Of a DNA stretch of 28,204 nt, positions 16,204-23,113 are shown piece after piece. Position 1 is the stretch's first letter. The number at the start of each line of letters is the position of its first letter. The notes under the pieces were generated by a model that had not been told where the DNA came from, did not search any database, and saw only the letters and a program-made list of their open reading frames with translations. The stretch lies in the NCBI GenBank assembly GCA_021454005.1, contig GCA_021454005.1_3939.2. One strand, 5' to 3'. The position numbers and the translations under genes are program-made. This DNA is from a phage.

Positions 16204-17619
16204 ATGAGCGAATTATTTAAACATGCGCACCTTCATGCAGGTCGAACTGAAAATGGTGCTGTAAACCATACTTCATCAATGTCTGCTCTTGTAGACTTTT
16301 ACAAAGCTGCTGGTTCAAGCCGTAGCAACGTAGAAATCTTACCAGACCTGTTCTACAAAGCTTTGCGTGAGGATGTTGATGTTGCAGTTCGTATTTTGCT
16401 TCATATGCGAGATGTACGAGAAGGTATGGGTGAGCGTAAAGCCTTCAGAACTGTTTTACTTCAAGCGATTGAAGACAAAGTTTTAGAGCCTACGCAGGTT
16501 CTTCGCATTATGGATAAGATTGCAGAACTTGGTCGTTTTGATGACTTCAAAATCTTCGTAGGTACTCGTTTCGAGACAGATGCCTTCAAACATCTAGAAG
16601 CAGCATTACTAGACCCTGCAACAGCAGGTTTGGCGGCTAAGTGGTTACCACGAGTCAAACCACGTCATAAGCAGTTTGTAAAACGTTTCTGCAAGTTTGC
16701 CAACTTGAGTGAGAAAGAGTACCGCACACTGTTGTCTGCACTATCTGATACAGTTGAGCAAAAAATCTCTGCTAATGAGTTTGGTAAGATTGACTACAGT
16801 AAGATTCCTTCACTTGCTGCTGCACGTTACCAAAAACTGTTTAACCGCAAAGATGGAGAACGCTACAAAGCTTACATCGAGTCCTTATCAAAGGGTGAGG
16901 CTAAGATTAATGCTGGTGCTGTTTACCCATACGATGTAATTAAATCTGTTAAGCATGGTAATGCAGATGTTGCTAATGAGCAGTGGAAAGCACTACCAAA
17001 CTGGATGGCAGAGGGTGAAAACATCTTGTGTATGTCTGATGTTTCAAGCTCAATGTCTTGGGTGAATTTTGGTTCAATTACTGCTCTTGATATTGGTGTT
17101 TCACTTGCATTGTATGTAGCAGAACGTAATACAGGTTGCTTTAAGAATGAGTTGATGGTTTATTCAACAAACCCTCACTTCATCGAACTGAGTGGTGATT
17201 TACGAAACCGTCATCGTCAGGTGATGCGACACGTTGAATATGGCTCAACTAACTTACAAGCAGCTTTTGACCGTATTCTTGAAACAGGTAAAAGAAACAA
17301 CTTGACTCAGAAAGATATGCCAAGTAAGCTTATCATCTTCTCCGATATGGAGTTCAATCAGGTTGATGGAGCTAACGGTCGTACAAACTTTGAAGCAATT
17401 CGTAGTAAGTACAAAAAAGCTGGATACGAAATGCCTCAACTGGTATTCTGGTACTTAGCAAACCGTAATGGTACTTGCGAAGTATCTGTTAAGGATAACG
17501 GTGTGGCAATGGTATCTGGTTTTTCTCCAGCTACTTTAAAAGCTCTGCTTGGTGGTGAGAAGTTTGACCCAATCAGCGTAATGCTCAAAGCAGTAATGAT
17601 TGACCGTTATATCTGGTAA
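16204..17619 (+). CDS. vWA-domain protein (MIDAS motif D-x-S-x-S) with N-terminal region resembling DUF2828/TROVE-like proteins
   Basis: 471-aa ORF; DVSSSMS (MIDAS-like) at about residue 280 and downstream IIFSDMEF; N-terminal TENGA...SALVDFY...R..DVREGMGER pattern recalled from DUF2828-type proteins. Confidence 0.7.
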   Translation: MSELFKHAHLHAGRTENGAVNHTSSMSALVDFYKAAGSSRSNVEILPDLFYKALREDVDVAVRILLHMRDVREGMGERKAFRTVLLQAIEDKVLEPTQVLRIMDKIAELGRFDDFKIFVGTRFETDAFKHLEAALLDPATAGLAAKWLPRVKPRHKQFVKRFCKFANLSEKEYRTLLSALSDTVEQKISANEFGKIDYSKIPSLAAARYQKLFNRKDGERYKAYIESLSKGEAKINAGAVYPYDVIKSVKHGNADVANEQWKALPNWMAEGENILCMSDVSSSMSWVNFGSITALDIGVSLALYVAERNTGCFKNELMVYSTNPHFIELSGDLRNRHRQVMRHVEYGSTNLQAAFDRILETGKRNNLTQKDMPSKLIIFSDMEFNQVDGANGRTNFEAIRSKYKKAGYEMPQLVFWYLANRNGTCEVSVKDNGVAMVSGFSPATLKALLGGEKFDPISVMLKAVMIDRYIW

Positions 17620-17637: not shown

Positions 17638-17666
17638 TTGACAATGTGTTTGATACCCTTTAATAT
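17638..17666 (+). promoter_or_regulatory. strong sigma70-like promoter TTGACA-N17-TAATAT flanked by inverted repeat AAGGGTAT/ATACCCTT
   Basis: hexamers at 17638-17643 and 17661-17666. Confidence 0.65.
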
Positions 17667-17728
17667 GTTCTACATAGAAACGAAACGAGAGCTTTTCTAA
17701 GATACTGAAAAATATTTTAAAAAAGTTC

Positions 17729-17758
17729 TTGACAACCACTAAAAAATAATGTTAAAGT
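17729..17758 (+). promoter_or_regulatory. promoter TTGACA-N18-TAAAGT with inverted repeat AACCACT/AGTGGTT, 27 nt upstream of the first tRNA
   Basis: hexamers at 17729-17734 and 17753-17758. Confidence 0.55.
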
Positions 17759-17784: not shown

Positions 17785-17861
17785 CTCTGTTTAGCTCAGC
17801 TTGGTAGAGCGTTCCGTTTGGGGCGGTAAGGCCGGAGGTTCAAGTCCTCCAACAGAGACCA
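17785..17861 (+). tRNA. tRNA-Pro (anticodon TGG)
   Basis: hand-folded cloverleaf: acceptor CTCTGTT/AACAGAG, anticodon loop TTTGGGG, T arm GGAGG-TTCAAGT-CCTCC, CCA encoded. Confidence 0.7.
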
Positions 17862-17868
17862 AATTAAT

Positions 17869-17946
17869 GTTCCAGTAGACAAAATGGTAAAGTCACCACT
17901 CTTTCAAAGTGGATATCTGAGGGTTCAAATCCCTTCTGGAACGCCA
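17869..17946 (+). tRNA. tRNA-Glu (anticodon TTC)
   Basis: acceptor GTTCCAG/CTGGAAC, anticodon stem CCACT/AGTGG, loop CTTTCAA, T-loop TTCAAAT, CCA encoded. Confidence 0.75.
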
Positions 17947-17953
17947 GTTTTGA

Positions 17954-18025
17954 CAGAAGACCAATTACAGCAAGCTTAATCTACTCATCTGACACGAAAT
18001 CGGACAAAGAAGATATTTGGTCTGG
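17954..18025 (+). ncRNA. spacer element copy 1: CAGAAGACCAA..TACAGCAAG...TTGGTCTGG (terminal 7-bp stem AGACCAA/TTGGTCT)
   Basis: conserved ends and covarying stem shared with copies at 18120, 18507, 18594. Confidence 0.5.
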
Positions 18026-18036
18026 TCATTGAGAAT

Positions 18037-18113
18037 TGCGGGTATAGAGAAAGGGCGTCTCACATGTCTCATTAGCATGGTATCGGCAGGTTCGACTCCT
18101 GCACCCGCCTCCA
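18037..18113 (+). tRNA. tRNA-Met (anticodon CAT)
   Basis: acceptor (T)GCGGGT/ACCCGC(C) with one unpaired position, anticodon stem CATGT/GCATG, loop CTCATTA, T arm GCAGG-TTCGACT-CCTGC, CCA encoded. Confidence 0.6.
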
Positions 18114-18119
18114 ATTTTG

Positions 18120-18179
18120 CAGAAGACCGTATTCAGCAACAAAATACTTTTTGCGGATAAAAGAAAAAACACGGTCTGG
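18120..18179 (+). ncRNA. spacer element copy 2: CAGAAGACCGT..TTCAGCAAC...ACGGTCTGG (stem AGACCGT/ACGGTCT)
   Basis: same architecture as copy 1 with a compensatory change in the stem. Confidence 0.5.
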
Positions 18180-18190
18180 CAATGTATTAA

Positions 18191-18267
18191 GGTTAGGAAG
18201 CACATAAGGTATGTGCGGTCGCCTGTTAAGCGAATGGCACAGGGTTCGAATCCCTGACTAACCGCCA
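18191..18267 (+). tRNA. tRNA-Asn (anticodon GTT)
   Basis: acceptor GGTTAGG/ACTAACC (one mismatch at 7-66), D stem GCAC/GTGC, loop CTGTTAA, T arm CAGGG-TTCGAAT-CCCTG, CCA encoded. Confidence 0.65.
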
Positions 18268-18275
18268 AATTAAAT

Positions 18276-18363
18276 GTGTCGTTATCCCGTAGATGGTAGC
18301 GGTGGGGACTGTAAATCCCTTGTCATTGAGACTCGGTAGGTTCGACTCCTACACGGCACACCA
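18276..18363 (+). tRNA. tRNA-Tyr (anticodon GTA), long variable arm
   Basis: acceptor GTGTCGT/ACGGCAC, loop CTGTAAA, variable stem GTC-ATTGA-GAC, T arm GTAGG-TTCGACT-CCTAC, CCA encoded. Confidence 0.7.
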
Positions 18364-18368
18364 ATAAA

Positions 18369-18445
18369 GGCTATGTAGTTTAACTGGAGAAAATACTCCC
18401 CTGTCACGGGAGATGATGTGAGTTCAAGTCTCATCGTAGCCGCCA
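18369..18445 (+). tRNA. tRNA-Asp (anticodon GTC)
   Basis: acceptor GGCTATG/CGTAGCC, anticodon stem CTCCC/GGGAG, loop CTGTCAC, T-loop TTCAAGT, CCA encoded. Confidence 0.75.
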
Positions 18446-18506
18446 ATTTTGAGAGGGCTATTTAGCCCCTCCCTTAAAGAGTTCTTACGAGTATTCTTTA
18501 AAGGAG

Positions 18507-18580
18507 CAGAAGACCAAATACAGCAAGAATGTATGAAATTTCAAGCCAATTTAATTTTGAAAATTTAAAACTTGGTCTGG
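18507..18580 (+). ncRNA. spacer element copy 3: CAGAAGACCAA..TACAGCAAG...TTGGTCTGG
   Basis: same architecture; stem AGACCAA/TTGGTCT. Confidence 0.5.
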
Positions 18581-18593
18581 CTCAACAAATTTA

Positions 18594-18725
18594 CAGAAGA
18601 CCGTTTACAGCAAAACTTAAACAATCTATTTCTCCGGTAAAGAAAAGGCGAAGGTTCGATTCCTTCACTCGGCAGATGTCGAGTTGGTGTAATGGTAGCA
18701 CTTAAGATGATAAACAACGGTCTGG
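18594..18725 (+). ncRNA. spacer element copy 4 (long form) with terminal stem AGACCGTT/AACGGTCT, containing tRNA-half-like hairpins
   Basis: CAGAAGACCGTTTACAGCAAA at the 5' end and AACGGTCTGG at the 3' end; interior carries a T-arm-like hairpin, an acceptor-like hairpin and a D-arm-like hairpin. Confidence 0.45.
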
Positions 18726-18726
18726 T

Positions 18727-18870
18727 AATTATCTTTGTAGATAAGTTATTAAGCTTACATGTGAGTATGCGACCACAAAGGGTGAAAGGGTAAATTCTAG
18801 ATTTAAACCCAAAAAGGCACATCGCTACAGACCTTAAGCAAGTCTGGGTAGCTTATCTACAAAGATAATT
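18727..18870. repeat. 19-bp perfect inverted repeat (AATTATCTTTGTAGATAAG / CTTATCTACAAAGATAATT) flanking 106 nt
   Basis: arms at 18727-18745 and 18852-18870; could be a long-stem RNA or a miniature inverted-repeat element. Confidence 0.6.
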
Positions 18871-18874
18871 TAAT

Positions 18875-18950
18875 GGAAGTGTAGCAGAATGGTGATGCGG
18901 CAGACTTTTAATCTGACAGGCGATGGGTTCGAATCCCTCCACTTCTACCA
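18875..18950 (+). tRNA. tRNA-Lys (anticodon TTT)
   Basis: acceptor GGAAGTG/CACTTCT (G1.U72), loop CTTTTAA, T-loop TTCGAAT, CCA encoded; close paralog of the tRNA at 20101. Confidence 0.65.
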
Positions 18951-18954
18951 ATAT

Positions 18955-19031
18955 GGTTCAGTCGCAGATAAGGTAATGCAAGGGTCTCATAAGCCCTATG
19001 AATGTGGGTTCGATTCCCATCTGAACCTCCA
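18955..19031 (+). tRNA. tRNA with anticodon CAT (Met, initiator, or Ile2/lysidine type)
   Basis: acceptor GGTTCAG/CTGAACC, anticodon stem AGGGT/GCCCT (three G-C pairs), loop CTCATAA, T arm GTGGG-TTCGATT-CCCAT, CCA encoded. Confidence 0.65.
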
Positions 19032-19032
19032 A

Positions 19033-19108
19033 GCTGGTATAGTTAAGAAGGTTATAACACTCCCCTGATAAGGGAACATCGGTGGTTCGATTCCACCTAC
19101 CAGTACCA
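19033..19108 (+). tRNA. tRNA-Ile (anticodon GAT)
   Basis: acceptor GCTGGTA/TACCAGT, D stem GTTA/TAAC, loop CTGATAA, T arm GGTGG-TTCGATT-CCACC, CCA encoded. Confidence 0.7.
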
Positions 19109-19123
19109 ATTTCAATAAAGTTG

Positions 19124-19152
19124 TTGACATTGAGATGTGACTACTTTATAGT
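19124..19152 (+). promoter_or_regulatory. sigma70-like promoter TTGACA-N17-TATAGT inside the tRNA array
   Basis: hexamers at 19124-19129 and 19147-19152; about 200 nt of unassigned sequence follows before the next tRNA. Confidence 0.6.
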
Positions 19153-19355
19153 AACCTTAGTTTTCGTTGCGTAGCGTCTATTTTGCAAATTTAAAATAAA
19201 TGCAAACGACAATGTTTTTCTGGCAGTAGCTTGATAGGCTAAACACCAGTGAGGTCTTCCAATCCCTCATCAAAGAATTTGGCGTACTAGCCCACGGTAT
19301 GATTAATAAGGTGGGCATCTTTAAGGGCTTTCTAAGAGAGTCTTTAAAGATTAAT

Positions 19356-19432
19356 GCACCCTTAGTTCAATTGGATAGAGCAACGGTCTTCTAAATCGTT
19401 AGTTACAGGTTCGAATCCTGTAGGGTGTGCCA
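19356..19432 (+). tRNA. tRNA-Arg (anticodon TCT)
   Basis: acceptor GCACCCT/AGGGTGT, D arm GTTC-AATTGGATA-GAGC, anticodon stem ACGGT/ATCGT, loop CTTCTAA, T arm ACAGG-TTCGAAT-CCTGT, CCA encoded. Confidence 0.75.
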
Positions 19433-19450
19433 ATTAGTTAGCAGATTACT

Positions 19451-19490
19451 TAGACGACCTAAGCGGGTCTTCCTGTAGGGAGGTGGTCTG
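19451..19490 (+). ncRNA. possible degenerate fifth copy of the AGACC...GGTCTG spacer element
   Basis: TAGACGACC...GGTGGTCTG with 6 of 7 stem positions pairing; weaker match. Confidence 0.25.
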
Positions 19491-19574
19491 TATCTCATGT
19501 TTTCCAGAACATGTAAATAATCTGAGAAGGGGCTTTACAGTGTTGAGATAATACGGTAAGCTTCGAATTACAGT

Positions 19575-19657
19575 ATGGGACGATGTTAAGACTCTAAGGC
19601 ATGAGCAACGGCCTCCAAAACCGTTTCAAAGGGGTTCAACTCCTCCGTCCCATGCCA
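19575..19657 (+). tRNA. tRNA-Trp (anticodon CCA), atypical (about 7 extra nt between acceptor stem and D arm)
   Basis: acceptor ATGGGAC/GTCCCAT (7 of 7), anticodon stem ACGGC/ACCGT with loop CTCCAAA, T arm AGGGG-TTCAACT-CCTCC, CCA encoded; D region does not fold canonically by hand. Confidence 0.5.
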
Positions 19658-19670
19658 AAGTCTTATTAGG

Positions 19671-19758
19671 GGTAGGTAGCGGCTAATGGTAGCCAAACTG
19701 TCTTGAAAACAGTTGCCACTGTAGAGATACGGTGAGGGTTCGACTCCTTTACTTACCG
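19671..19758 (+). tRNA. tRNA-Ser (anticodon TGA), long variable arm
   Basis: acceptor GGTAGGT/ACTTACC, anticodon stem ACTGT/ACAGT, loop CTTGAAA, long variable arm, T-loop TTCGACT; CCA not fully encoded. Confidence 0.7.
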
Positions 19759-19914
19759 CCTAATAAGATTTACACCGTCCATGCTTGCTCGCATTTTCGG
19801 TTTATCCCTCGTGTATTGTCGTACACTGATAAAGCACCTAGTAGGTGTCACGGAGAAGAGATAATATCAAGCTCTCCAAAGGTTCTAGTCACCGGATTAA
19901 ACAAGACTATGCAA

Positions 19915-19935
19915 AGACCTATTTAGGTCTTTTTA
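19915..19935 (+). terminator. intrinsic terminator AGACCT-ATTT-AGGTCT-TTTTT within the tRNA array
   Basis: perfect 6-bp inverted repeat plus T5. Confidence 0.6.
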
Positions 19936-20014
19936 GAGGGCTTCTAAGGTTATTAGTCGCTTGTTGTGGAACCTTGTTGCTCAGGTTCTTAGAAGTTCTC
20001 TAAAAAGATTTAAT

Positions 20015-20093
20015 GGGAGATTGACGGCAACTTGGTAGACCTATCTCGCTTAGAACGAGATGCTTGAGGGTTCGAATCCCTTGTCTCCTACCA
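20015..20093 (+). tRNA. tRNA with anticodon TAG (Leu by the standard code) but a short variable arm
   Basis: acceptor GGGAGAT/GTCTCCT, anticodon stem (A)TCTCG/CGAGA(T), loop CTTAGAA, variable region about 4 nt, T arm GAGGG-TTCGAAT-CCCTT, A73, CCA encoded. Confidence 0.55.
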
Positions 20094-20100
20094 AATTAAT

Positions 20101-20176
20101 GCAGGTGTAGCAAAATGGTTATGCGGCTGACTCTTAATCAGTAAGACGATGGGTTCAATTCCCTCCACCTGTACCA
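20101..20176 (+). tRNA. tRNA-Lys (anticodon CTT)
   Basis: acceptor GCAGGTG/CACCTGT, anticodon stem GCTGA/TCAGT, loop CTCTTAA, T-loop TTCAATT, CCA encoded. Confidence 0.65.
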
Positions 20177-20182
20177 GACATT

Positions 20183-20258
20183 GGGGATGTAGTTTACATG
20201 GTTAAAACATAAGTTTTGCAAACTTAAGTACAGGGTTCAATTCCCTGCTTCTCCACCA
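20183..20258 (+). tRNA. tRNA-Ala (anticodon TGC)
   Basis: acceptor GGGGATG/CTTCTCC with a G3.U70 pair (Ala identity element), D stem GTTT/AAAC, anticodon stem TAAGT/ACTTA, loop TTTGCAA, CCA encoded. Confidence 0.75.
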
Positions 20259-20264
20259 ATTAGT

Positions 20265-20339
20265 GCATCCATAGTTTAAACGGGAAAATTACAGTCTTCC
20301 AAACTGAGGTTGAGGGTTCGATTCCCTCTGGATGCTCCA
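20265..20339 (+). tRNA. tRNA-Gly (anticodon TCC)
   Basis: acceptor GCATCCA/TGGATGC, loop CTTCCAA, T arm GAGGG-TTCGATT-CCCTC, CCA encoded. Confidence 0.7.
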
Positions 20340-20346
20340 AATTAAT

Positions 20347-20422
20347 GCTCCTATCGTATAATTGGCTATTACGGTTGCCTTGTAAGCAACTTATCAGGGT
20401 TCGAATCCTTGTGGGAGCACCA
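20347..20422 (+). tRNA. tRNA-Thr (anticodon TGT)
   Basis: acceptor GCTCCTA/TGGGAGC, anticodon stem GTTGC/GCAAC, loop CTTGTAA, T-loop TTCGAAT, CCA encoded. Confidence 0.75.
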
Positions 20423-20517
20423 ATTCAGAGGTCAAGTGAAAGACCGCTGGTGTCAACTGAAGACCGTAACAAATTCCACGGAGTTGAGTTAGCGGCACAA
20501 CTTCAGACCTCTTTCAT

Positions 20518-20592
20518 GCTCGCTTAGTTTATATGGTAAAACATCACCCTTACAAGATGAAGAAAAAGGTTCAAGTCCTTTAGTGAGTACCA
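20518..20592 (+). tRNA. tRNA-Val (anticodon TAC)
   Basis: acceptor GCTCGCT/AGTGAGT (two G.U pairs), D stem GTTT/AAAC, loop CTTACAA, T arm AAAGG-TTCAAGT-CCTTT, CCA encoded. Confidence 0.65.
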
Positions 20593-20593
20593 T

Positions 20594-20671
20594 GTTCCAG
20601 TATCCCAATTGGCAGAGGATGCAAGCTCAAACCTTGTATTAGTGACGGTTCGAATCCGTCTTGGAACACCA
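20594..20671 (+). tRNA. tRNA with anticodon CAA (Leu by the standard code) but a short variable arm
   Basis: acceptor GTTCCAG/TTGGAAC, D arm ATCC-CAATTGGCAGA-GGAT, anticodon stem GCAAG/CTTGT, loop CTCAAAC, variable region about 6 nt, T arm GACGG-TTCGAAT-CCGTC, A73, CCA encoded. Confidence 0.55.
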
Positions 20672-20676
20672 ATTTT

Positions 20677-20752
20677 GCAGGATTAGTTCAAATGGATAGA
20701 GCAACAGTCTACGAAGCTGTTAATAGGGGTTCGAATCCCTTATCCTGCGCCA
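20677..20752 (+). tRNA. tRNA-Arg (anticodon ACG)
   Basis: acceptor GCAGGAT/ATCCTGC (7 of 7), D arm GTTC-AAATGGATA-GAGC, anticodon stem ACAGT/GCTGT, loop CTACGAA, CCA encoded. Confidence 0.8.
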
Positions 20753-20769
20753 GATAAAAAGGTGATACT

Positions 20770-21012
20770 ATGCAAACATTAACAGTAGTTGAACATGAAA
20801 ACTGTGAGAATATTGAGTTTGTCAGGGTCATTGGTGTTGAACACCACATTTTCTTAAAAGTAGGGTACTTATGTGACCCCGCTAGAGTAGAAAGATTTAT
20901 ACGTGATTGTTTTGGTGGTAGACAGCTAAAGAGTGTTATTTTTGAGACAGTTTTACCAGAAGGTTTAGAAACGAATAATAACATTTATCTCCTTACAAGG
21001 ATTAGACGATGA
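20770..21012 (+). CDS. hypothetical protein (80 aa) embedded in the tRNA array
   Basis: AAGGTGA 5 nt upstream of ATG; stop overlaps the next start (ATGA). Confidence 0.55.
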   Translation: MQTLTVVEHENCENIEFVRVIGVEHHIFLKVGYLCDPARVERFIRDCFGGRQLKSVIFETVLPEGLETNNNIYLLTRIRR

Positions 21013-21566
21013 GATATTTAAAATATGCTTCATGGATTTTCCTAGCTTTGCTAGAACCATTAGCAGCAACCTTAGCAGTTATCTTAGCACCTTTCGTAGT
21101 TCCATTTTACAGTGAGAAGAAAGGCCACTTACCTTTCGGATTTAGATGGATGGAGACATATGACAACCCAATTGATGGTGACGAAGGTCATATCGAACGA
21201 TGGGCTAAGATTAGAAAGATTGGTAAGCTGGGTGTCTACATGCAGAGAGTCGGATGGCTCTGGAGAAACAAAGCTTATAACTTCTCTTACCATGTATTAG
21301 GAAGAGATGTAAAAGATGTTACTAAGTGGAAAGGTAATATCAACGTAAGTTCTGACCCTGAAGATAATCAGACAGGTTATCTCCTAATGTGGAACAGTAA
21401 TGCTTGGGGATTATTCGCTTTTATCCCATCAATTAAAGTCTTTGGTAAACAGTTTTACTGGAGAATTTATATTGGATGGAAACTAAAAAGTGTTGTCCCA
21501 GAAGAAAGAGCATTCTCAAGGGAAAGAGTTATGTTGGCATTCTTTATTCATCCACTGAGAAAGTAA
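21009..21566 (+). CDS. hypothetical membrane protein (185 aa, N-terminal TM segment)
   Basis: translationally coupled to the upstream ORF; N-terminus WIFLALLEPLAATLAVILAPFVVPF is hydrophobic. Confidence 0.6.
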   Translation: MRYLKYASWIFLALLEPLAATLAVILAPFVVPFYSEKKGHLPFGFRWMETYDNPIDGDEGHIERWAKIRKIGKLGVYMQRVGWLWRNKAYNFSYHVLGRDVKDVTKWKGNINVSSDPEDNQTGYLLMWNSNAWGLFAFIPSIKVFGKQFYWRIYIGWKLKSVVPEERAFSRERVMLAFFIHPLRK

Positions 21567-21574
21567 AGATTTAA

Positions 21575-21650
21575 AGGGGATTAGTTTACAAGGTTAAAAC
21601 CTCGGTCTTTGAAATCGAAGAAGTTGGTTCAATTCCAACATCCCCCGCCA
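21575..21650 (+). tRNA. tRNA-Gln (anticodon TTG)
   Basis: acceptor AGGGGAT/ATCCCCC (position 1-72 unpaired A.C), D stem GTTT/AAAC, anticodon stem TCGGT/ATCGA, loop CTTTGAA, T arm GTTGG-TTCAATT-CCAAC, CCA encoded. Confidence 0.65.
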
Positions 21651-21652
21651 AT

Positions 21653-21731
21653 GCTCCATTACTCCAATTGGCAGAGAGGCCAGACTTAAAATCTGTGTTA
21701 TGTATCGGTTCGAATCCGATATGGAGTACCA
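21653..21731 (+). tRNA. tRNA with anticodon TAA (Leu by the standard code) but a short variable arm
   Basis: acceptor GCTCCAT/ATGGAGT, D region CCAATTGGCAGAG, anticodon stem (C)CAGA/TCTG(T), loop CTTAAAA, variable region about 7 nt, T arm ATCGG-TTCGAAT-CCGAT, A73, CCA encoded. Confidence 0.55.
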
Positions 21732-21736
21732 AATTT

Positions 21737-21812
21737 AGCGGTATAGCATAACTGGCAATGCAACAGTCTCTGAAGCTGTCCTATTAAGGTTCAAATCCTT
21801 ATGCCGCTGCCA
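21737..21812 (+). tRNA. tRNA-Gln (anticodon CTG)
   Basis: acceptor AGCGGTA/TGCCGCT, anticodon stem ACAGT/GCTGT, loop CTCTGAA, T arm TAAGG-TTCAAAT-CCTTA, CCA encoded. Confidence 0.65.
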
Positions 21813-21843
21813 CTTCTAAGGGTTCTTACGAGAGTCCTTAAAT

Positions 21844-21919
21844 GTGGCCTTATCATAAATGGTAATGACCCATGCTGTGAACATGGTCTATACGGGTTCA
21901 AATCCCGTAGGTCACCCCA
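21844..21919 (+). tRNA. tRNA-His (anticodon GTG)
   Basis: acceptor GTGGCCT/AGGTCAC, D stem TCAT/ATGA, anticodon stem CCATG/CATGG, loop CTGTGAA, discriminator C73, CCA encoded. Confidence 0.75.
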
Positions 21920-21924
21920 ATTTA

Positions 21925-21999
21925 TAGTCCAAGTAGCTTATATGGTTAAAGCGCGTGTCTGAAAAACATGAGAAGAGGGTTCAAATCCCACTGGACTAC
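21925..21999 (+). tRNA. tRNA-Phe (anticodon GAA)
   Basis: acceptor TAGTCCA/TGGACTA (7 of 7), anticodon stem CGTGT/ACATG, loop CTGAAAA, T-loop TTCAAAT; D arm irregular; CCA only partly encoded. Confidence 0.6.
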
Positions 22000-22017
22000 C
22001 AATTTCAAAGGTGCTTA

Positions 22018-22752
22018 ATGAAAGAGATGACAGAACAAGGTAAGGAGATTTTTAATCTCTTAAAAACCGGTAAAGGGTTTTCTAACCCACTTATTACTGG
22101 TGCAGCAGTTCTCGGTGGAACCGTAGCTGCCTCTACATCACTTGTAAGCTCTATTAGTTCTGTAACAGACCCTACAATGCAGGAGAAACTTGTTGCTGCT
22201 GGACTTACAACAGTCCTTCTAAACAGCTTTACAACAAGCCTTACAAGCACTACAGCAACTACTAAGACCCTGACAGACTACGGTCAAAAATCTATTGATG
22301 AGTTTTCATCACGTATGCAGGTAGCAAAGGGATATTCCAATGTTATGGGTGCAGCAGGAGAACAAGTTGGTTGTACACCGTTCAGTGGTATTATGGGTGT
22401 TGCTACAGAATATGGTCAAAAAGCTATTGATACGATTAACAGTACACTAGAGAGTGTTAACGATGTATTAAGTGACTTACAAGACGCTATTGACAAGGGT
22501 CTTGATACTGTTTCTGATTTAGCTAACCAAGCTGTCAGTAAGATTAATGAAGGTATCTCAAAGATTACAGCTTATGCAGATGAAGTTGTGCAGATGATTG
22601 AAGAAGAAGCTGCCCTTATTGCAGAGTACCTTAAAACGAATATCAATGGGTTCTTAGCAGGTATCTTACCAGACTGGTTTGACGATGCCTGTAAAACTGG
22701 TGTAATTGACACTATTGCAACACCAGAAATGAAGAACGCATTACAGAAATAA
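22018..22752 (+). CDS. hypothetical Ser/Thr/Ala-rich protein (244 aa)
   Basis: ATG 22018 with AAAGG upstream; the ORF-track start 21955 lies inside tRNA-Phe. Confidence 0.6.
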   Translation: MKEMTEQGKEIFNLLKTGKGFSNPLITGAAVLGGTVAASTSLVSSISSVTDPTMQEKLVAAGLTTVLLNSFTTSLTSTTATTKTLTDYGQKSIDEFSSRMQVAKGYSNVMGAAGEQVGCTPFSGIMGVATEYGQKAIDTINSTLESVNDVLSDLQDAIDKGLDTVSDLANQAVSKINEGISKITAYADEVVQMIEEEAALIAEYLKTNINGFLAGILPDWFDDACKTGVIDTIATPEMKNALQK

Positions 22753-22754
22753 AT

Positions 22755-22847
22755 GGAAGATTAACCCTAAAAGGTAAGGGAGCAGTTTGCTAAACTGCCA
22801 GTAGCTGAGAAATCGGTGTACCAGTTCAAGTCTGGTATCTTCCTCCA
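22755..22847 (+). tRNA. tRNA-Ser (anticodon GCT), long variable arm
   Basis: acceptor GGAAGAT/ATCTTCC (7 of 7), anticodon stem GCAGT/ACTGC, loop TTGCTAA, long variable arm, T arm ACCAG-TTCAAGT-CTGGT, CCA encoded. Confidence 0.75.
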
Positions 22848-22851
22848 ATTT

Positions 22852-22927
22852 GAATCCGTGACAGAAATGGCTATGTGCCTGTCTGCAAAACAGGTTTATA
22901 AGGGTTCGAGTCCCTTCGGATTCTCCA
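22852..22927 (+). tRNA. tRNA-Cys (anticodon GCA)
   Basis: acceptor GAATCCG/CGGATTC (7 of 7), anticodon stem CCTGT/ACAGG, loop CTGCAAA, T arm AAGGG-TTCGAGT-CCCTT, CCA encoded. Confidence 0.8.
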
Positions 22928-23089: not shown

Positions 23090-23113
23090 GACGGTCTCTG
23101 TGCCGTCTTTTTT
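23090..23113 (+). terminator. intrinsic terminator GACGG-TCTCTGTG-CCGTC-TTTTTT
   Basis: 5-bp G/C stem plus T6, immediately upstream of the packaging module. Confidence 0.6.

What the first reader, a model, noticed from the sequence alone, without database searches (positions are those of the whole stretch)
17785..22927. Dense tRNA array that appears to cover all 20 amino acids
I fold 27 tRNA genes by hand: Pro, Glu, Met x2 (CAT), Asn, Tyr, Asp, Lys x2, Ile, Arg x2, Trp, Ser x2, Ala, Gly, Thr, Val, Gln x2, His, Phe, Cys and three Leu-anticodon tRNAs. Most encode their CCA end, and several are separated by only 1-5 nt. A near-complete set suggests the phage supplements or replaces host tRNAs, either for codon-usage reasons or to resist host tRNA depletion or cleavage.
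Basis: partly seen in the sequence, partly recalled or inferred. Interest (0 to 1): 0.5.

Follow-up and report, generated by a model that had tools for sequence, protein, structure and literature searches.

The report
Known phage tRNA array, hidden RNAs
This is the real but already annotated block of about 26 transfer-RNA genes of a Felix O1-type coliphage; the gaps between the tRNAs also hold unannotated small RNA genes that look like partners of the Ro60-like protein encoded just upstream.

Summary
The window comes from a Felixounavirus (98.4% identical to Escherichia phage vB_EcoM_ASO1A). ARAGORN tRNA genes at exactly 17785-22927, all on the + strand. Rfam passes 24 of them. 25 of 26 encode CCA, and eight junctions are 1-5 nt. 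The programs cover 19 amino acids. It does have a CCA anticodon, A1-U72, G73 and a 3' CCA, but its D region is aberrant. Close relatives are annotated with 25-26 tRNAs, and published work shows that Felixounavirus tRNA-Ser(UGA) can replace missing host tRNAs. The array and its interpretation are therefore already known.

The array also contains genes that are not tRNAs. Four elements (17958-18724) have a 7-bp stem followed by NNN-CAGCAA. They belong to a covarying RNA family that sits beside DUF2828 genes in very different phages. The window's DUF2828 protein (16204-17619) has the Ro60 fold. One of the four elements carries a permuted tRNA-like module, as YrlA Y RNAs do. The short elements share their design with Dictyostelium Class I RNAs. 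A tmRNA-like tag frame (ANDNVFLAVA**, 19202-19237) with no tRNA-like domain recurs in unrelated phages.

The parts
16204..17619 (+). Ro60-like protein gene (DUF2828 + DUF7788; HEAT ring + vWA with an intact DxSxS MIDAS motif), directly upstream of the array
   Evidence: Pfam hits at E 1e-30 and 3e-43. AF2 model with pLDDT 87.4. The top 10 Foldseek PDB hits are all Ro60/Rsr/TROVE, E 2e-8 to 1e-6, TM 0.5-0.64. D279, S281 and S283 are invariant in 33 homologues. 98.1% identical to the homologous protein of phage Bas63 (JohannRWettstein), whose gp130 is reported to be Ro60-like and to counter the Ppl defence.
17638..17758 (+). two sigma70-like promoter matches (17638-17666, 17729-17758) ahead of the first tRNA
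   Evidence: 10 of 12 consensus matches each, with a perfect TTGACA. These are pattern matches only.
17785..17946 (+). tRNA-Pro(UGG) 17785-17861 and tRNA-Glu(UUC) 17869-17946
   Evidence: ARAGORN; Rfam 57.7 and 60.4 bits
17958..18024 (+). Y-like RNA 1: 7-bp stem AGACCAA/UUGGUCU, linker UUA, CAGCAA, 3' G; an outer 4-bp helix UGAC/GUCA flanks the stem
   Evidence: Model R1, built without any Felixounavirus sequence, gives 25.9 bits, E 1.9e-4. Fold.
18037..18113 (+). tRNA with anticodon CAU; U1xC72 mismatch with G2-C71 and C3-G70 (initiator-like acceptor end); U at position 37; no three G-C pairs in the anticodon stem
   Evidence: ARAGORN; Rfam 28.5 bits, just under the cut-off of 29
18124..18178 (+). 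Y-like RNA 2: AGACCGU/ACGGUCU, linker AUU, CAGCAA, 3' G; outer helix UUGC/GCAA
   Evidence: R1 gives 31.7 bits, E 5.6e-6, the best hit in the window. Rfam Dicty_Class_I matches the full model at 24 bits against a cut-off of 41.5.
18191..18445 (+). tRNA-Asn(GUU) 18191-18267, tRNA-Tyr(GUA) 18276-18363 (long variable arm), tRNA-Asp(GUC) 18369-18445
   Evidence: ARAGORN; Rfam
18511..18579 (+). Y-like RNA 3: AGACCAA/UUGGUCU, linker AUA, CAGCAA, 3' G; outer helix GAGC/GCUC
   Evidence: R1 gives 26.0 bits, E 1.7e-4. Fold z-score -2.7.
18598..18724 (+). Y-like RNA 4, long form: the same stem (AGACCGU/ACGGUCU) + UUA + CAGCAA frame encloses a permuted tRNA-like module, in the order V-like hairpin, T arm GAAGG-UUCGAUU-CCUUC, closed acceptor-like hairpin ACUCGGC-AGAU-GUCGAGU, D arm GUGU-AAUGGUA-GCAC
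   Evidence: The minimum-energy fold gives this four-way junction. 10 of 12 long forms from different phages have the same order of parts. Homologous long forms in LeBron and in L022 hit Rfam YrlA at 39-40 bits. This copy itself gives no YrlA hit.
18730..18867 (+). unassigned, highly structured gap element with a 21-bp closing stem
   Evidence: MFE -44.9 kcal/mol, z-score -6.0, 0 of 200 shuffles fold as well
18875..19108 (+). tRNA-Lys(UUU) 18875-18950, tRNA CAU 18955-19031, tRNA-Ile(GAU) 19033-19108
   Evidence: ARAGORN; Rfam 54-62 bits
19124..19152 (+). best sigma70-like promoter match in the region (TTGACA-17-TATAGT)
   Evidence: 11 of 12 matches. The same site is annotated as a promoter in ASO1A.
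19158..19311 (+). tmRNA-like coding piece. The tag frame GCA AAC GAC AAU GUU UUU CUG GCA GUA GCU UGA UAG spells ANDNVFLAVA** at 19202-19237, and its end lies in a hairpin. No tRNA-like domain was found.
   Evidence: Rfam tmRNA hits are weak only: 15-29 bits. The same block occurs in Cba120, EspM4VN, Klebsiella P5026 and Escherichia S192, with synonymous changes that keep the peptide. It is nearly invariant in Felixounaviruses.
19356..19432 (+). tRNA-Arg(UCU), which reads AGA/AGG
   Evidence: ARAGORN; Rfam 62.8 bits. AGA is used 7.7x more than in the host.
19575..19657 (+). Trp-like tRNA candidate, 83 nt: A1-U72, G73, CCA end, loop CU-CCA-AA (anticodon 19615-19617) closed by a C31xA39 mismatch, T loop UUCAACU, D region 7 nt too long
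   Evidence: Read from the sequence. Fold. Not called by ARAGORN. Rfam gives only a tRNA-Sec hit of 23 bits, E 0.4. The body is identical in 7 genomes while the flanks vary. The variants seen elsewhere are loop changes at 32/38 and two stem-breaking changes, with no compensatory change.
19671..19760 (+). tRNA-Ser(UGA), the only gene without an encoded CCA
   Evidence: ARAGORN; Rfam 33.2 bits. The Felixounavirus Ser-UGA tRNA is functional according to PMC12269064.
19922..20013 (+). unassigned 26-bp hairpin in the Ser/Leu gap
   Evidence: z-score -4.0, 0 of 200 shuffles fold as well
20015..20422 (+). tRNA-Leu(UAG) 20015-20093, Lys(CUU) 20101-20176, Ala(UGC) 20183-20258, Gly(UCC) 20265-20339, Thr(UGU) 20347-20422
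   Evidence: ARAGORN; Rfam. Leu-UAG scores only 30.5 bits.
20427..20513 (+). unassigned long hairpin in the Thr/Val gap
   Evidence: MFE -30.7 kcal/mol, z-score -2.9
20518..20752 (+). tRNA-Val(UAC) 20518-20592, Leu(CAA) 20594-20671, Arg(ACG) 20677-20752
   Evidence: ARAGORN; Rfam
20770..21566 (+). two ORFs inside the array: 20770-21012 (80 aa, no family) and 21009-21566 (185 aa, DUF7338)
   Evidence: ORF list; Pfam; annotated as CDS in relatives
21575..22001 (+). tRNA-Gln(UUG) 21575-21650, Leu(UAA) 21653-21731, Gln(CUG) 21737-21812, His(GUG) 21844-21919, Phe(GAA) 21926-22001
   Evidence: ARAGORN; Rfam
22018..22752 (+). ORF inside the array (DUF7217)
   Evidence: Pfam E 1e-88; annotated as CDS in relatives
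22755..22927 (+). tRNA-Ser(GCU) 22755-22847 and tRNA-Cys(GCA) 22852-22927
   Evidence: ARAGORN; Rfam
23090..23107 (+). terminator-like hairpin followed by a T run, after the array
   Evidence: pattern scan

Best explanation
The region is the RNA-gene island of a Felix O1-type myovirus. Shown: it holds 26 canonical tRNA genes, all co-oriented and mostly 1-8 nt apart, and 25 of them encode CCA. Inferred: they are transcribed rightward as a few polycistronic precursors from sigma70-like promoters at about 17640, 17730 and 19124, and host RNase P and 3' trimming enzymes cut them out. The set is minimalist. There is one U34 (or A34) tRNA for each four-codon box (UGG, UGC, UCC, UGU, UAC, UGA, UAG, ACG), plus tRNAs for the two-codon sets. 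If the Trp-like gene works and one CAU tRNA reads AUA, the set could decode nearly every codon (inference). It matches the A/U-ending codons that the AT-rich phage genes over-use, so it tops up decoders that are rare in the host and can replace host tRNAs that are missing. Replacement has been shown in the literature for Felixounavirus tRNA-Ser(UGA). The same transcription units also carry non-tRNA RNAs. Four are stem + CAGCAA RNAs, and one of those contains a permuted tRNA-like module. I infer that they are the Y-RNA-type partners of the Ro60-fold DUF2828 protein encoded immediately upstream, and that cleavage of the flanking tRNAs releases them from the precursor. There is also a tmRNA-like tag-coding piece.
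For: 26 tRNA calls, 24 of them above the Rfam cut-off. CCA ends are in the gene sequences. Relatives with 95-98% identity are annotated with 25-26 tRNAs in the same order. Felix O1 and wV8 were published with 22 and 23 tRNAs, and the genus with 17-23. Codon usage fits the phage tRNA set. REP05-12 Felixounaviruses infect a host that lacks tRNA-Ser UGA/CGA. For the Y-like RNAs, model R1, built only from seven non-Felixounavirus phages, finds three window elements as the top three hits (E 6e-6 to 2e-4; the next hit has E 0.38). R1 gives 49 hits with E <= 0.1 in 75 independent DUF2828 loci, all on the gene strand and close to the gene. The stem is paired in 99% of cells against 64% in shuffles, and 6 of 7 pairs covary. 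The base after the stem, which the scan did not select for, is G in 120 of 146 hits. The protein has the Ro60 fold. The long-form architecture is shared by 10 of 12 examples.
Against: No expression, processing or charging data were available here. The promoter scan as a whole is not enriched over shuffles (20 sites against 16.1 expected). The host codon table was recalled from memory. The number of tRNAs varies among relatives, and homing endonucleases interrupt the array in some of them, so individual genes are dispensable. Binding of the stem + CAGCAA RNAs to the DUF2828 protein is inferred only from gene neighbourhood and from analogy with Ro60. The window's long element does not hit the Rfam YrlA model.
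Confidence: 0.85

Rival explanations
1. The main selective value of the array is insurance against host defences that cleave or deplete tRNAs (anticodon nucleases, retron- or toxin-type tRNases), not adjustment to codon usage. The phage copies would differ from the host tRNAs at the positions the nucleases recognise.
For: Most Felixounavirus species of the BASEL collection escape retron Eco2, which cuts tRNAs (PMC12916289). That paper cites work on phage tRNAs evading tRNA-targeting defences. The set is nearly complete rather than limited to rare codons. The Trp-like gene varies in concert at loop positions 32 and 38 in REP10 and ESCO50. The upstream Ro-like gene is reported to counter the Ppl defence.
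Against: The over-used codons match the phage tRNAs well, which codon adjustment alone explains. The two explanations can both be true.
Confidence: 0.35
2. The Trp-like element at 19575-19657 is not a working tRNA-Trp. It would be a decaying pseudogene or a tRNA-like RNA with another role, and the phage set then covers 19 amino acids.
For: ARAGORN does not call it at default or relaxed thresholds. The Rfam tRNA model does not match it. The D region is about 7 nt too long and has only a 3-bp stem. There is a C31xA39 mismatch. The fold z-score is only -0.9. 35FD (G29xA41) and REP10 (acceptor stem) each carry a stem-breaking substitution, and no compensatory change was seen. No relative annotates it.
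Against: The body is identical in 7 genomes while the flanks vary. It combines a CCA anticodon, A1-U72 and G73, which is the E. coli TrpRS identity set (own knowledge). It also has an encoded CCA end and a canonical T loop.
Confidence: 0.4
3. The stem + CAGCAA elements are not partners of the Ro-like protein. They would be processing, termination or cis-regulatory signals, for example spacers that guide tRNA precursor cleavage or leaders that control the DUF2828 mRNA.
For: They lie in a tRNA precursor and next to the gene. In some phages they abut the start codon of the DUF2828 gene (L004, L005, L008). No binding data exist.
Against: They occur beside DUF2828 genes in phages that have no tRNA array there (Staphylococcus S-CoN_Ph10, LeBron, LAh_8). 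They lie either upstream or downstream of the gene, in tandem sets of 2-5. The unpaired CAGCAA, the G-C second pair and the 3' G are conserved while the stems covary. Some enclose a YrlA-like tRNA mimic, the hallmark of Ro60-bound Y RNAs (PMC4201824).
Confidence: 0.2
4. Much of the array is dispensable baggage kept by linkage and shuffled by homing endonucleases, with little effect on fitness.
For: tRNA counts in the genus range from 17 to 26 depending on phage and annotation tool. HNH and other endonuclease genes are inserted in the array in some relatives.
Against: Gene order and sequence are conserved at 90-98% across more than 230 records. The anticodon set is non-redundant. Function is demonstrated for Ser-UGA.
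Confidence: 0.1

Closest known systems
tRNA gene clusters of Felix O1-like phages (Felix O1, wV8, typing phage 1, ASO1A, REP05-12)
   Same: Same genes in the same order at 95-98% nucleotide identity. Relatives are annotated with 22-26 tRNAs. The Ser-UGA tRNA is shown to be functional in REP phages.
   Different: Nothing material differs for the tRNAs. None of the records inspected annotates the Trp-like gene, the four stem + CAGCAA RNAs or the tmRNA-like piece.
tRNA clusters of T4 and T5 (own knowledge; Bailly-Bechet et al. 2007 is cited)
   Same: Tightly packed, co-transcribed tRNA genes with interspersed small stable RNAs and homing endonucleases. The tRNAs match codons that the phage over-uses.
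   Different: The set here is larger than T4's eight tRNAs and is built as a minimal one-per-box set. Its three Leu tRNAs lack the long variable arm.
Ro60 / Y RNA modules: Salmonella Rsr-YrlA-YrlB, cluster C mycobacteriophages, Thermus phage phiLo (PMC4201824, PMC12135203)
   Same: A Ro60-fold protein has small RNAs encoded beside it on the same strand, both long and short forms. The long form mimics a tRNA with a T arm, a closed acceptor-like stem and a D arm. Long forms in other phages score 39-40 bits with Rfam YrlA.
   Different: The protein matches Pfam DUF2828/DUF7788 and not the TROVE model. It has no sequence hit in the PDB. The conserved RNA motif is CAGCAA three bases after a 7-bp stem, not the GNCGAA/CGAA bulge. 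The window's long form gives no YrlA hit.
Dictyostelium Class I RNAs (Rfam RF01414; PMC7919456)
   Same: About 55-65 nt long. A short covarying stem joins the 5' and 3' ends. The stem has an invariant G at its 5' end. The motif (U)UACAGCAA lies directly 3' of the 5' strand, the interior is variable, and the 3' end is C-U-G. RF01414 is the only non-tRNA Rfam family that repeatedly hits these elements over its full length.
   Different: All scores are below the cut-off (24-30 bits against 41.5). The hosts are phages of bacteria, whereas Class I RNAs were reported as unique to Dictyostelia. No Dictyostelium sequence was compared directly. The only direct binder of Class I RNA named there is an RRM protein, Rnp1A. 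Whether Dictyostelium has a DUF2828 protein could not be checked.
tmRNA (ssrA), two-piece tmRNAs, and the TLD-only ssrA of mycobacteriophage DS6A (PMC4131195)
   Same: An A-rich stretch precedes a GCA resume-type codon. The tag is ANDxxxLAVA or ANDDVVLMAA, like E. coli ANDENYALAA (own knowledge). It ends in double stops that lie in a hairpin. Synonymous changes between phages keep the peptide.
   Different: There is no acceptor stem or T arm. ARAGORN does not call it. Rfam scores are 15-29 bits against cut-offs of 47-84. The 2014 census of phage ssrA genes does not list Felix O1-like or ViI-like phages.

Membership tests
Bacterial-type tRNA genes (Rfam RF00005 / ARAGORN) | Cloverleaf covariance score at or above the curated cut-off | tested here: met
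   24 of 26 genes score 30.5-62.8 bits against a cut-off of 29. Met 18037 scores 28.5 bits. Tyr 18276 scores only with the tRNA-Sec model. All 26 are called by ARAGORN.
Complete 20-amino-acid tRNA set | At least one program-verified tRNA for each amino acid | tested here: not met
   19 amino acids are covered. No Trp call at default or relaxed thresholds.
tRNA-Trp (E. coli-type identity), for element 19575-19657 | CCA anticodon in a 7-nt loop, G73 discriminator, A1-U72 pair | tested here: met
   Read directly from the sequence. That these three features form the identity set is own knowledge.
tRNA-Trp, for element 19575-19657 | Canonical cloverleaf: two bases between the acceptor and D stems, a 3-4 bp D stem, a fully paired anticodon stem | tested here: not met
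   10 nt lie before a 3-bp D stem, and there is a C31xA39 mismatch. No hit to the Rfam tRNA model.
Bacterial class II tRNA-Leu | Long variable arm of 13 nt or more | tested here: not met
   The genes are 78-79 nt including CCA. The variable loops are 6-7 nt. A73 and a Leu-type D arm (3-bp stem, AAUUGGCAGA loop) are present.
Ro60 / TROVE proteins, for ORF 16204-17619 | Ring of HEAT-like repeats plus a C-terminal vWA domain with a MIDAS motif | tested here: met
   The top 10 Foldseek hits are all Ro60/Rsr over the full length. DxSxS is invariant.
Ro60 / TROVE proteins, for ORF 16204-17619 | Sequence membership: a Pfam TROVE domain hit or a sequence hit to a solved Ro60 | tested here: not met
   Pfam gives only DUF2828 and DUF7788. 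phmmer against PDB sequences gives no hit at E <= 1.
Ro60 / TROVE proteins, for ORF 16204-17619 | Binds Y RNAs | not testable with these tools
   Inferred only from the gene neighbourhood.
YrlA-type Y RNA (Rfam RF02553), for element 18598-18724 | Score at or above the cut-off of 69 bits | tested here: not met
   No hit even at E <= 10 in a 161-nt search. Homologous long forms in LeBron and L022 reach 39-40 bits.
YrlA-type Y RNA, for element 18598-18724 | A terminal stem enclosing a tRNA-like module with a T arm, a closed acceptor-like stem and a D arm | tested here: met
   The minimum-energy fold shows it. 10 of 12 long forms have the same order of parts.
YrlA-type Y RNA | GNCGAA(N0-1)G motif near the 5' end | tested here: not met
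   The elements carry NNN-CAGCAA at that place. The motif is as defined in PMC4201824.
Dictyostelium Class I RNA (Rfam RF01414), for elements 1-3 | Short covarying stem joining the ends, with a conserved 5' G | tested here: met
   7-bp stem, 99% paired, 6 of 7 pairs covary, G-C second pair in 44 of 44.
Dictyostelium Class I RNA, for elements 1-3 | 11-nt motif CCUUACAGCAA next to the 5' strand, with near-invariant U3, C6, C9, A10, A11 | tested here: met
   C6, C9, A10 and A11 are present in 4 of 4 window elements, U3 in 2 of 4. The commonest linker across phages is UUA. The motif is as defined in PMC7919456.
Dictyostelium Class I RNA, for elements 1-3 | Rfam score at or above the cut-off of 41.5 bits | tested here: not met
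   24 bits in the window. 24.7-29.6 bits in other phages.
tmRNA (ssrA), for element 19158-19311 | tRNA-like domain with a G3-U70 acceptor stem, a T arm and a CCA end | tested here: not met
   ARAGORN makes no tmRNA call at default settings. At the relaxed threshold it only builds chimeras with neighbouring tRNAs. Nothing of the kind appears in the alignment.
tmRNA (ssrA), for element 19158-19311 | Tag reading frame that starts at an Ala codon and ends in a hydrophobic A-rich tail plus a stop inside a helix | tested here: met
   ANDNVFLAVA** in the window. Five phage versions keep the peptide through synonymous changes.

The most novel reading that the evidence does not exclude
The four stem + CAGCAA RNAs hidden in the tRNA array belong to a widespread, so far unannotated family of phage small RNAs. 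These would be the Y-RNA counterparts of the DUF2828 branch of Ro60-like proteins. The family has short forms of about 55-65 nt and long forms that carry a permuted tRNA mimic. It is found next to DUF2828 genes in phages of Enterobacteria, Aeromonas, Campylobacter, Listeria, Staphylococcus, Enterococcus, Bacillus and Mycobacterium. The probability given applies to this claim. A further claim is less likely, roughly one in four. The short forms have the same design as Dictyostelium Class I RNAs, which were thought to be unique to social amoebae. This predicts that Class I RNAs bind a DUF2828/Ro-type protein. In this phage the ribonucleoprotein sits with a near-complete tRNA set and a tmRNA-like tag RNA, so it may act on tRNA or translation surveillance, or on defences such as Ppl.
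Probability: 0.6. Interest if true: 0.8.

Novelty: already known. Interest (0 to 1): 0.4.

Why it matters
The tRNA array adds nothing new: it is annotated in near-identical genomes and its function has been probed experimentally. The re-reading matters in three ways. First, it gives sequence-level candidates for a guess made in the PhageMaP preprint, that some RNA genes next to Bas63 gp130 are Y RNAs. It shows that these are not among the annotated tRNAs but lie in the gaps between them. Second, it defines a testable RNA signature (7-bp stem, 3-nt linker, CAGCAA, 3' G) for a large family of Ro60-like proteins of unknown function. That family occurs in phages, and DUF2828 is also reported in plants. 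Third, it suggests a protein partner for the Class I RNAs of Dictyostelium, whose function is unknown. The tmRNA-like tag piece shared by Felix O1-like and ViI-like phages is a further unexplained RNA that touches on ribosome rescue.

Tried and rejected
1. ARAGORN at a relaxed threshold still did not call Trp. It produced 'permuted tmRNA' calls that merely join the tag frame to neighbouring tRNAs, so I treated them as artefacts.
2. The Rfam YrlA model gave no hit on the window's long element.
3. A sequence search of the Ro-like protein against PDB chains gave no hit. Only the fold comparison worked.
4. The AlphaFold-database fold library was not available, so I could not list eukaryotic DUF2828 homologues or look for one in Dictyostelium.
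5. Avesson et al. 2011, which reports the proteins pulled down with Class I RNA, is not held. The supplementary phage table of Chen et al. 2014 is not held either.
6. A literature search for ACAGCAA plus 'Y RNA' returned only noise. A search for DUF2828 returned five unrelated papers, four on plants and one on a tardigrade genome.
7. The MAFFT alignment of the long forms (A5) misaligned the T arms. I therefore built no covariance model for them and used an explicit parser of the parts instead.
8. I first read the T-arm and D-arm halves at 18640-18705 as remnants of a tandem tRNA duplication. I rejected this because the same permuted order, framed by the same stem + CAGCAA, recurs in unrelated phages.
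9. I considered that the tag frame might be a small ATG-initiated ORF. I rejected this because the overlapping ATG is absent in Cba120, while the GCN-AAY-GAY frame is kept.
10. An earlier count gave the tag frame as 19205-19240. The correct coordinates are 19202-19237.

Full report
**Identity of the window**

The 5.7 kb around the finding matches 368 phage records. 233 of them cover at least 80% of it. The best is Escherichia phage vB_EcoM_ASO1A at 98.4% identity, and nearly all are Felixounaviruses, that is, Felix O1-like myoviruses. G+C is 34-44% along the window.

**Check of the observation**

ARAGORN finds 26 tRNA genes, all on the + strand, from 17785 to 22927. Rfam's tRNA model passes its curated cut-off for 24 of them, with E from 1e-6 to 1e-11. 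Met 18037 reaches 28.5 bits against a cut-off of 29, and Tyr 18276 scores only with the tRNA-Sec model. 25 of the 26 encode CCA; Ser-UGA does not. Eight junctions are 1-5 nt and seven more are 6-8 nt. No program calls Trp, at default or relaxed thresholds. The programs verify 19 amino acids.

**The Trp-like element**

It has these features:
- acceptor stem AUGGGAC/GUCCCAU, then G, then CCA;
- anticodon loop CU-CCA-AA, closed by a C31xA39 mismatch;
- T loop UUCAACU;
- ten bases instead of two before a 3-bp D stem.

A1-U72, G73 and the CCA anticodon are the identity set of E. coli TrpRS (own knowledge). The body is identical in seven Felixounavirus genomes whose flanks vary. More distant relatives show a paired change at loop positions 32 and 38. 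They also show two stem-breaking substitutions, and no compensatory change. I rate it as a plausible but unproven non-canonical tRNA-Trp, at about 60%.

**What is already known**

Close relatives are annotated with the same genes in the same order: 25 tRNAs in ASO1A and 26 in typing phage 1. Felix O1 and wV8 were published with 22 and 23 tRNAs, and a genus survey gave 17-23. The eight REP05-12 phages that infect the recoded host Syn61-delta-3, which lacks tRNA-Ser UGA/CGA, are reported to be Felixounaviruses encoding a seryl-tRNA. REP9 and REP10 match this window. The array and the idea that it replaces host tRNAs are therefore already known.

**How the array works**

The anticodon set is minimalist. 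There is one tRNA per four-codon box (UGG, UGC, UCC, UGU, UAC, UGA, UAG, ACG), plus tRNAs for the two-codon sets. In 27 window ORFs (5324 codons, GC3 0.33), the codons most over-used relative to E. coli are all read by phage tRNAs: AGA 7.7x, ACA 3.6x, AAG 3.2x, CUA and UCA 2.75x, GUA and CCA 2.2x. The host table in that comparison was recalled from memory.

Perfect TTGACA promoter matches lie at 17638, 17729 and 19124, and a terminator-like hairpin lies at 23090. These are pattern matches only. Co-transcription and processing by host RNase P and 3' trimming enzymes are inferred from established tRNA biology. Three ORFs sit inside the array (20770-21012, 21009-21566, 22018-22752).

**The gene upstream**

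ORF 16204-17619 matches DUF2828 and DUF7788. It has no sequence hit in the PDB. A confident model (pLDDT 87.4) matches Ro60, Rsr and the Thermus phage Ro60 as its ten best PDB hits over the full length. The vWA MIDAS motif is invariant. It is 98.1% identical to the homologous protein of phage Bas63 (JohannRWettstein). A preprint reports that Bas63 gp130 is Ro60-like, that it counters the Ppl defence, and only guesses that 'some tRNA genes are possibly Y RNAs'.

**The stem + CAGCAA RNAs**

Four gaps between the first tRNAs hold elements of the form AG-N5, NNN, CAGCAA ... N5-CU, G. Each has an outer 4-bp helix that differs in sequence between copies.

The same design sits next to DUF2828 genes, on the same strand and often in tandem sets of 2-5, in these phages:
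- Aeromonas LAh_8
- Campylobacter F370
- Mycobacterium LeBron
- Listeria A511
- Staphylococcus S-CoN_Ph10
- Enterococcus VRE9_2
- Bacillus PK-3

In 75 metagenomic viral loci, a fixed-geometry scan finds the design far more often on the gene strand. One scan gave 102 hits against 27 on the opposite strand and 18 in shuffles. A stricter scan over all loci gave 146 against 27. The base after the stem, which the scan did not select for, is G in 120 of 146 hits.

A covariance model built only from the seven isolates above gave these results:
- It ranks the three short window elements first in the whole window (E 5.6e-6, 1.7e-4, 1.9e-4; the next hit has E 0.38).
- It gives 49 hits with E <= 0.1 in the 75 loci, all on the gene strand and near the gene.
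- On those hits the stem is 99% paired against 64% in shuffles, 6 of 7 pairs covary, and the G-C second pair is invariant.

This is a real structured RNA family tied to DUF2828 genes.

**The long form**

Element 4 (18598-18724) encloses a V-like hairpin, a T arm, a closed acceptor-like hairpin and a D arm. Ten of twelve long forms from different phages have the same parts in the same order. The long forms of LeBron and L022 hit Rfam YrlA at 39-40 bits, below its cut-off of 69. The window copy gives no YrlA hit. This is the architecture of the tRNA-mimicking Y RNAs that bind bacterial Ro60. The conserved motif differs, however: CAGCAA here, against GNCGAA/CGAA there. I infer that these RNAs are the Y-RNA counterparts for the DUF2828 protein. 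In this phage, cleavage of the flanking tRNAs would release them from the precursor. Binding is not shown.

**Resemblance to Dictyostelium Class I RNAs**

The only non-tRNA Rfam family that repeatedly matches the short forms over its full length is Dicty_Class_I_RNA, at 24-30 bits against a cut-off of 41.5. The defining features of that class are a length of about 60 nt, a short covarying stem with a conserved 5' G, and an 11-nt motif CCUUACAGCAA next to the 5' strand. All are present here. That paper reports the class as unique to Dictyostelia.

I could not test whether Dictyostelium has a DUF2828 protein. DUF2828 does occur in plants. The resemblance is a lead, not a membership.

**The tmRNA-like piece**

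Downstream of the 19124 promoter, 19202-19237 reads ANDNVFLAVA followed by two stops, preceded by an A-rich stretch. About 100-125 nt around it recur in unannotated intergenic DNA of Cba120, EspM4VN, Klebsiella P5026 and Escherichia S192. Their tags are ANDNTFLAVA, ANDDVVLMAA, ANDTELLAVA and ANDDVVLMAA. Synonymous changes keep the peptide, and the stop codons lie in a conserved hairpin.

No tRNA-like domain is found. A 2014 census of phage ssrA genes lists neither group of phages. What the piece does is unknown. It could be a coding piece that needs a separate acceptor RNA, or a decoy.

**Context**

22 of 60 metagenomic DUF2828 loci have tRNA or tmRNA genes within 3 kb, every one on the DUF2828 strand. 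One of them has a full tmRNA. Ro-like protein, Y-like RNAs, tRNAs and tmRNA-type RNAs thus tend to travel together.

**Verdict**

The finding as stated is ordinary. The unannotated RNAs inside its coordinates are the part that deserves follow-up.

Noticed in passing
window 17958-18024, 18124-18178, 18511-18579, 18598-18724: Four unannotated stem + NNN-CAGCAA RNAs lie in the tRNA gaps. They belong to a covarying family that sits beside DUF2828 (Ro60-fold) genes in many unrelated phages. The fourth encloses a permuted tRNA-like module.
   Followed up: yes
window 18125-18178; L004 4139-4192 and 4597-4659; L059 4689-4748; L039 2802-2860: The short forms repeatedly give full-length but sub-threshold hits (24-30 bits against a cut-off of 41.5) to Rfam Dicty_Class_I_RNA. 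They share its defining layout: a short terminal stem, (U)UACAGCAA next to the 5' strand, and a C-U-G 3' end.
   Followed up: partly
window 19158-19311 (tag frame 19202-19237); L092 1501-1596, L093 1501-1620, L094 1501-1621, L095 1501-1597: A tmRNA-like tag-coding RNA (ANDNVFLAVA**) with no tRNA-like domain is shared with ViI-like phages (Cba120, EspM4VN), Klebsiella P5026 and Escherichia S192. Synonymous changes between them keep the peptide.
   Followed up: partly
window 20015-20093, 20594-20671, 21653-21731; L017 6864-6940, 7214-7291: All three Leu-anticodon tRNAs are 78-79 nt with 6-7 nt variable loops, so they lack the long arm of bacterial tRNA-Leu. They keep A73 and a Leu-type D arm. 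A phage related at only 48% protein identity has the same short Leu tRNAs. Another (L022 6498-6585) has a normal 88-nt one.
   Followed up: partly
window 18037-18113 and 18955-19031: Both CAU tRNAs have U73. The first has a U1xC72 mismatch with G2-C71 and C3-G70, like an initiator, but it lacks the three G-C pairs in the anticodon stem and has U at position 37. Which of the two is Met, fMet or Ile2 is not settled.
   Followed up: no
window 18730-18867, 19922-20013, 20427-20513: Three further gap elements fold far better than shuffles (z-scores -6.0, -4.0 and -2.9). They have 21-26 bp closing stems and match no Rfam family.
   Followed up: no
window 18474-18501, 19318-19350, 21813-21843: Read by eye, short hairpins of the type UUAAAG..UCUUACGAG..CUUUAA recur at the ends of tRNA sub-clusters. 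They may be processing or termination signals. Only the first was folded (z-score -3.9 together with its neighbour).
   Followed up: no
L096 (REP10) and L098 (ESCO50), the region homologous to window 19606-19622: In two relatives the Trp-like gene has C32 changed to U and A38 changed to C together, with the CCA anticodon unchanged. This is a coordinated change in the anticodon loop.
   Followed up: no
L008 (Listeria A511), L010 (Enterococcus VRE9_2), L011 (Bacillus PK-3), L005 (Campylobacter F370), L017, L022, L039, L048: DUF2828 genes are often embedded in or next to co-oriented tRNA arrays. In PK-3 and L017 the stem + CAGCAA RNAs are interleaved with the tRNAs, as in this window. Campylobacter F370 keeps the order Met-gap-Asn-Tyr next to the gene.
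   Followed up: partly
L076 6696-7187: A metagenomic phage with a DUF2828 gene carries a complete tmRNA 2.3 kb downstream (85.5 bits; tag EEVELAVAA*).
   Followed up: no
L008 2465-3016 (Listeria A511): A ROOL RNA match just under its cut-off (87.5 bits against 99.1) lies between tRNA genes about 1 kb upstream of the DUF2828 gene.
   Followed up: no
L004 4866-4970 (Aeromonas LAh_8): The annotated start of the DUF2828 CDS is probably about 100 nt too far upstream. That stretch holds two stem + CAGCAA elements, and similarity to the other proteins begins at MNLFQAINNNGRTENGA.
   Followed up: no
L018 2276-2370, L019 2737-2836, L024 149-280, L030 1265-1373, L042 2734-2828: A second kind of long form has the same stem + CAGCAA frame but a different conserved insert (..GAACCUUUCUGGAGGGGAAAGCAAAAACUCGCCAAAA..) in place of the tRNA-like module.
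   Followed up: no
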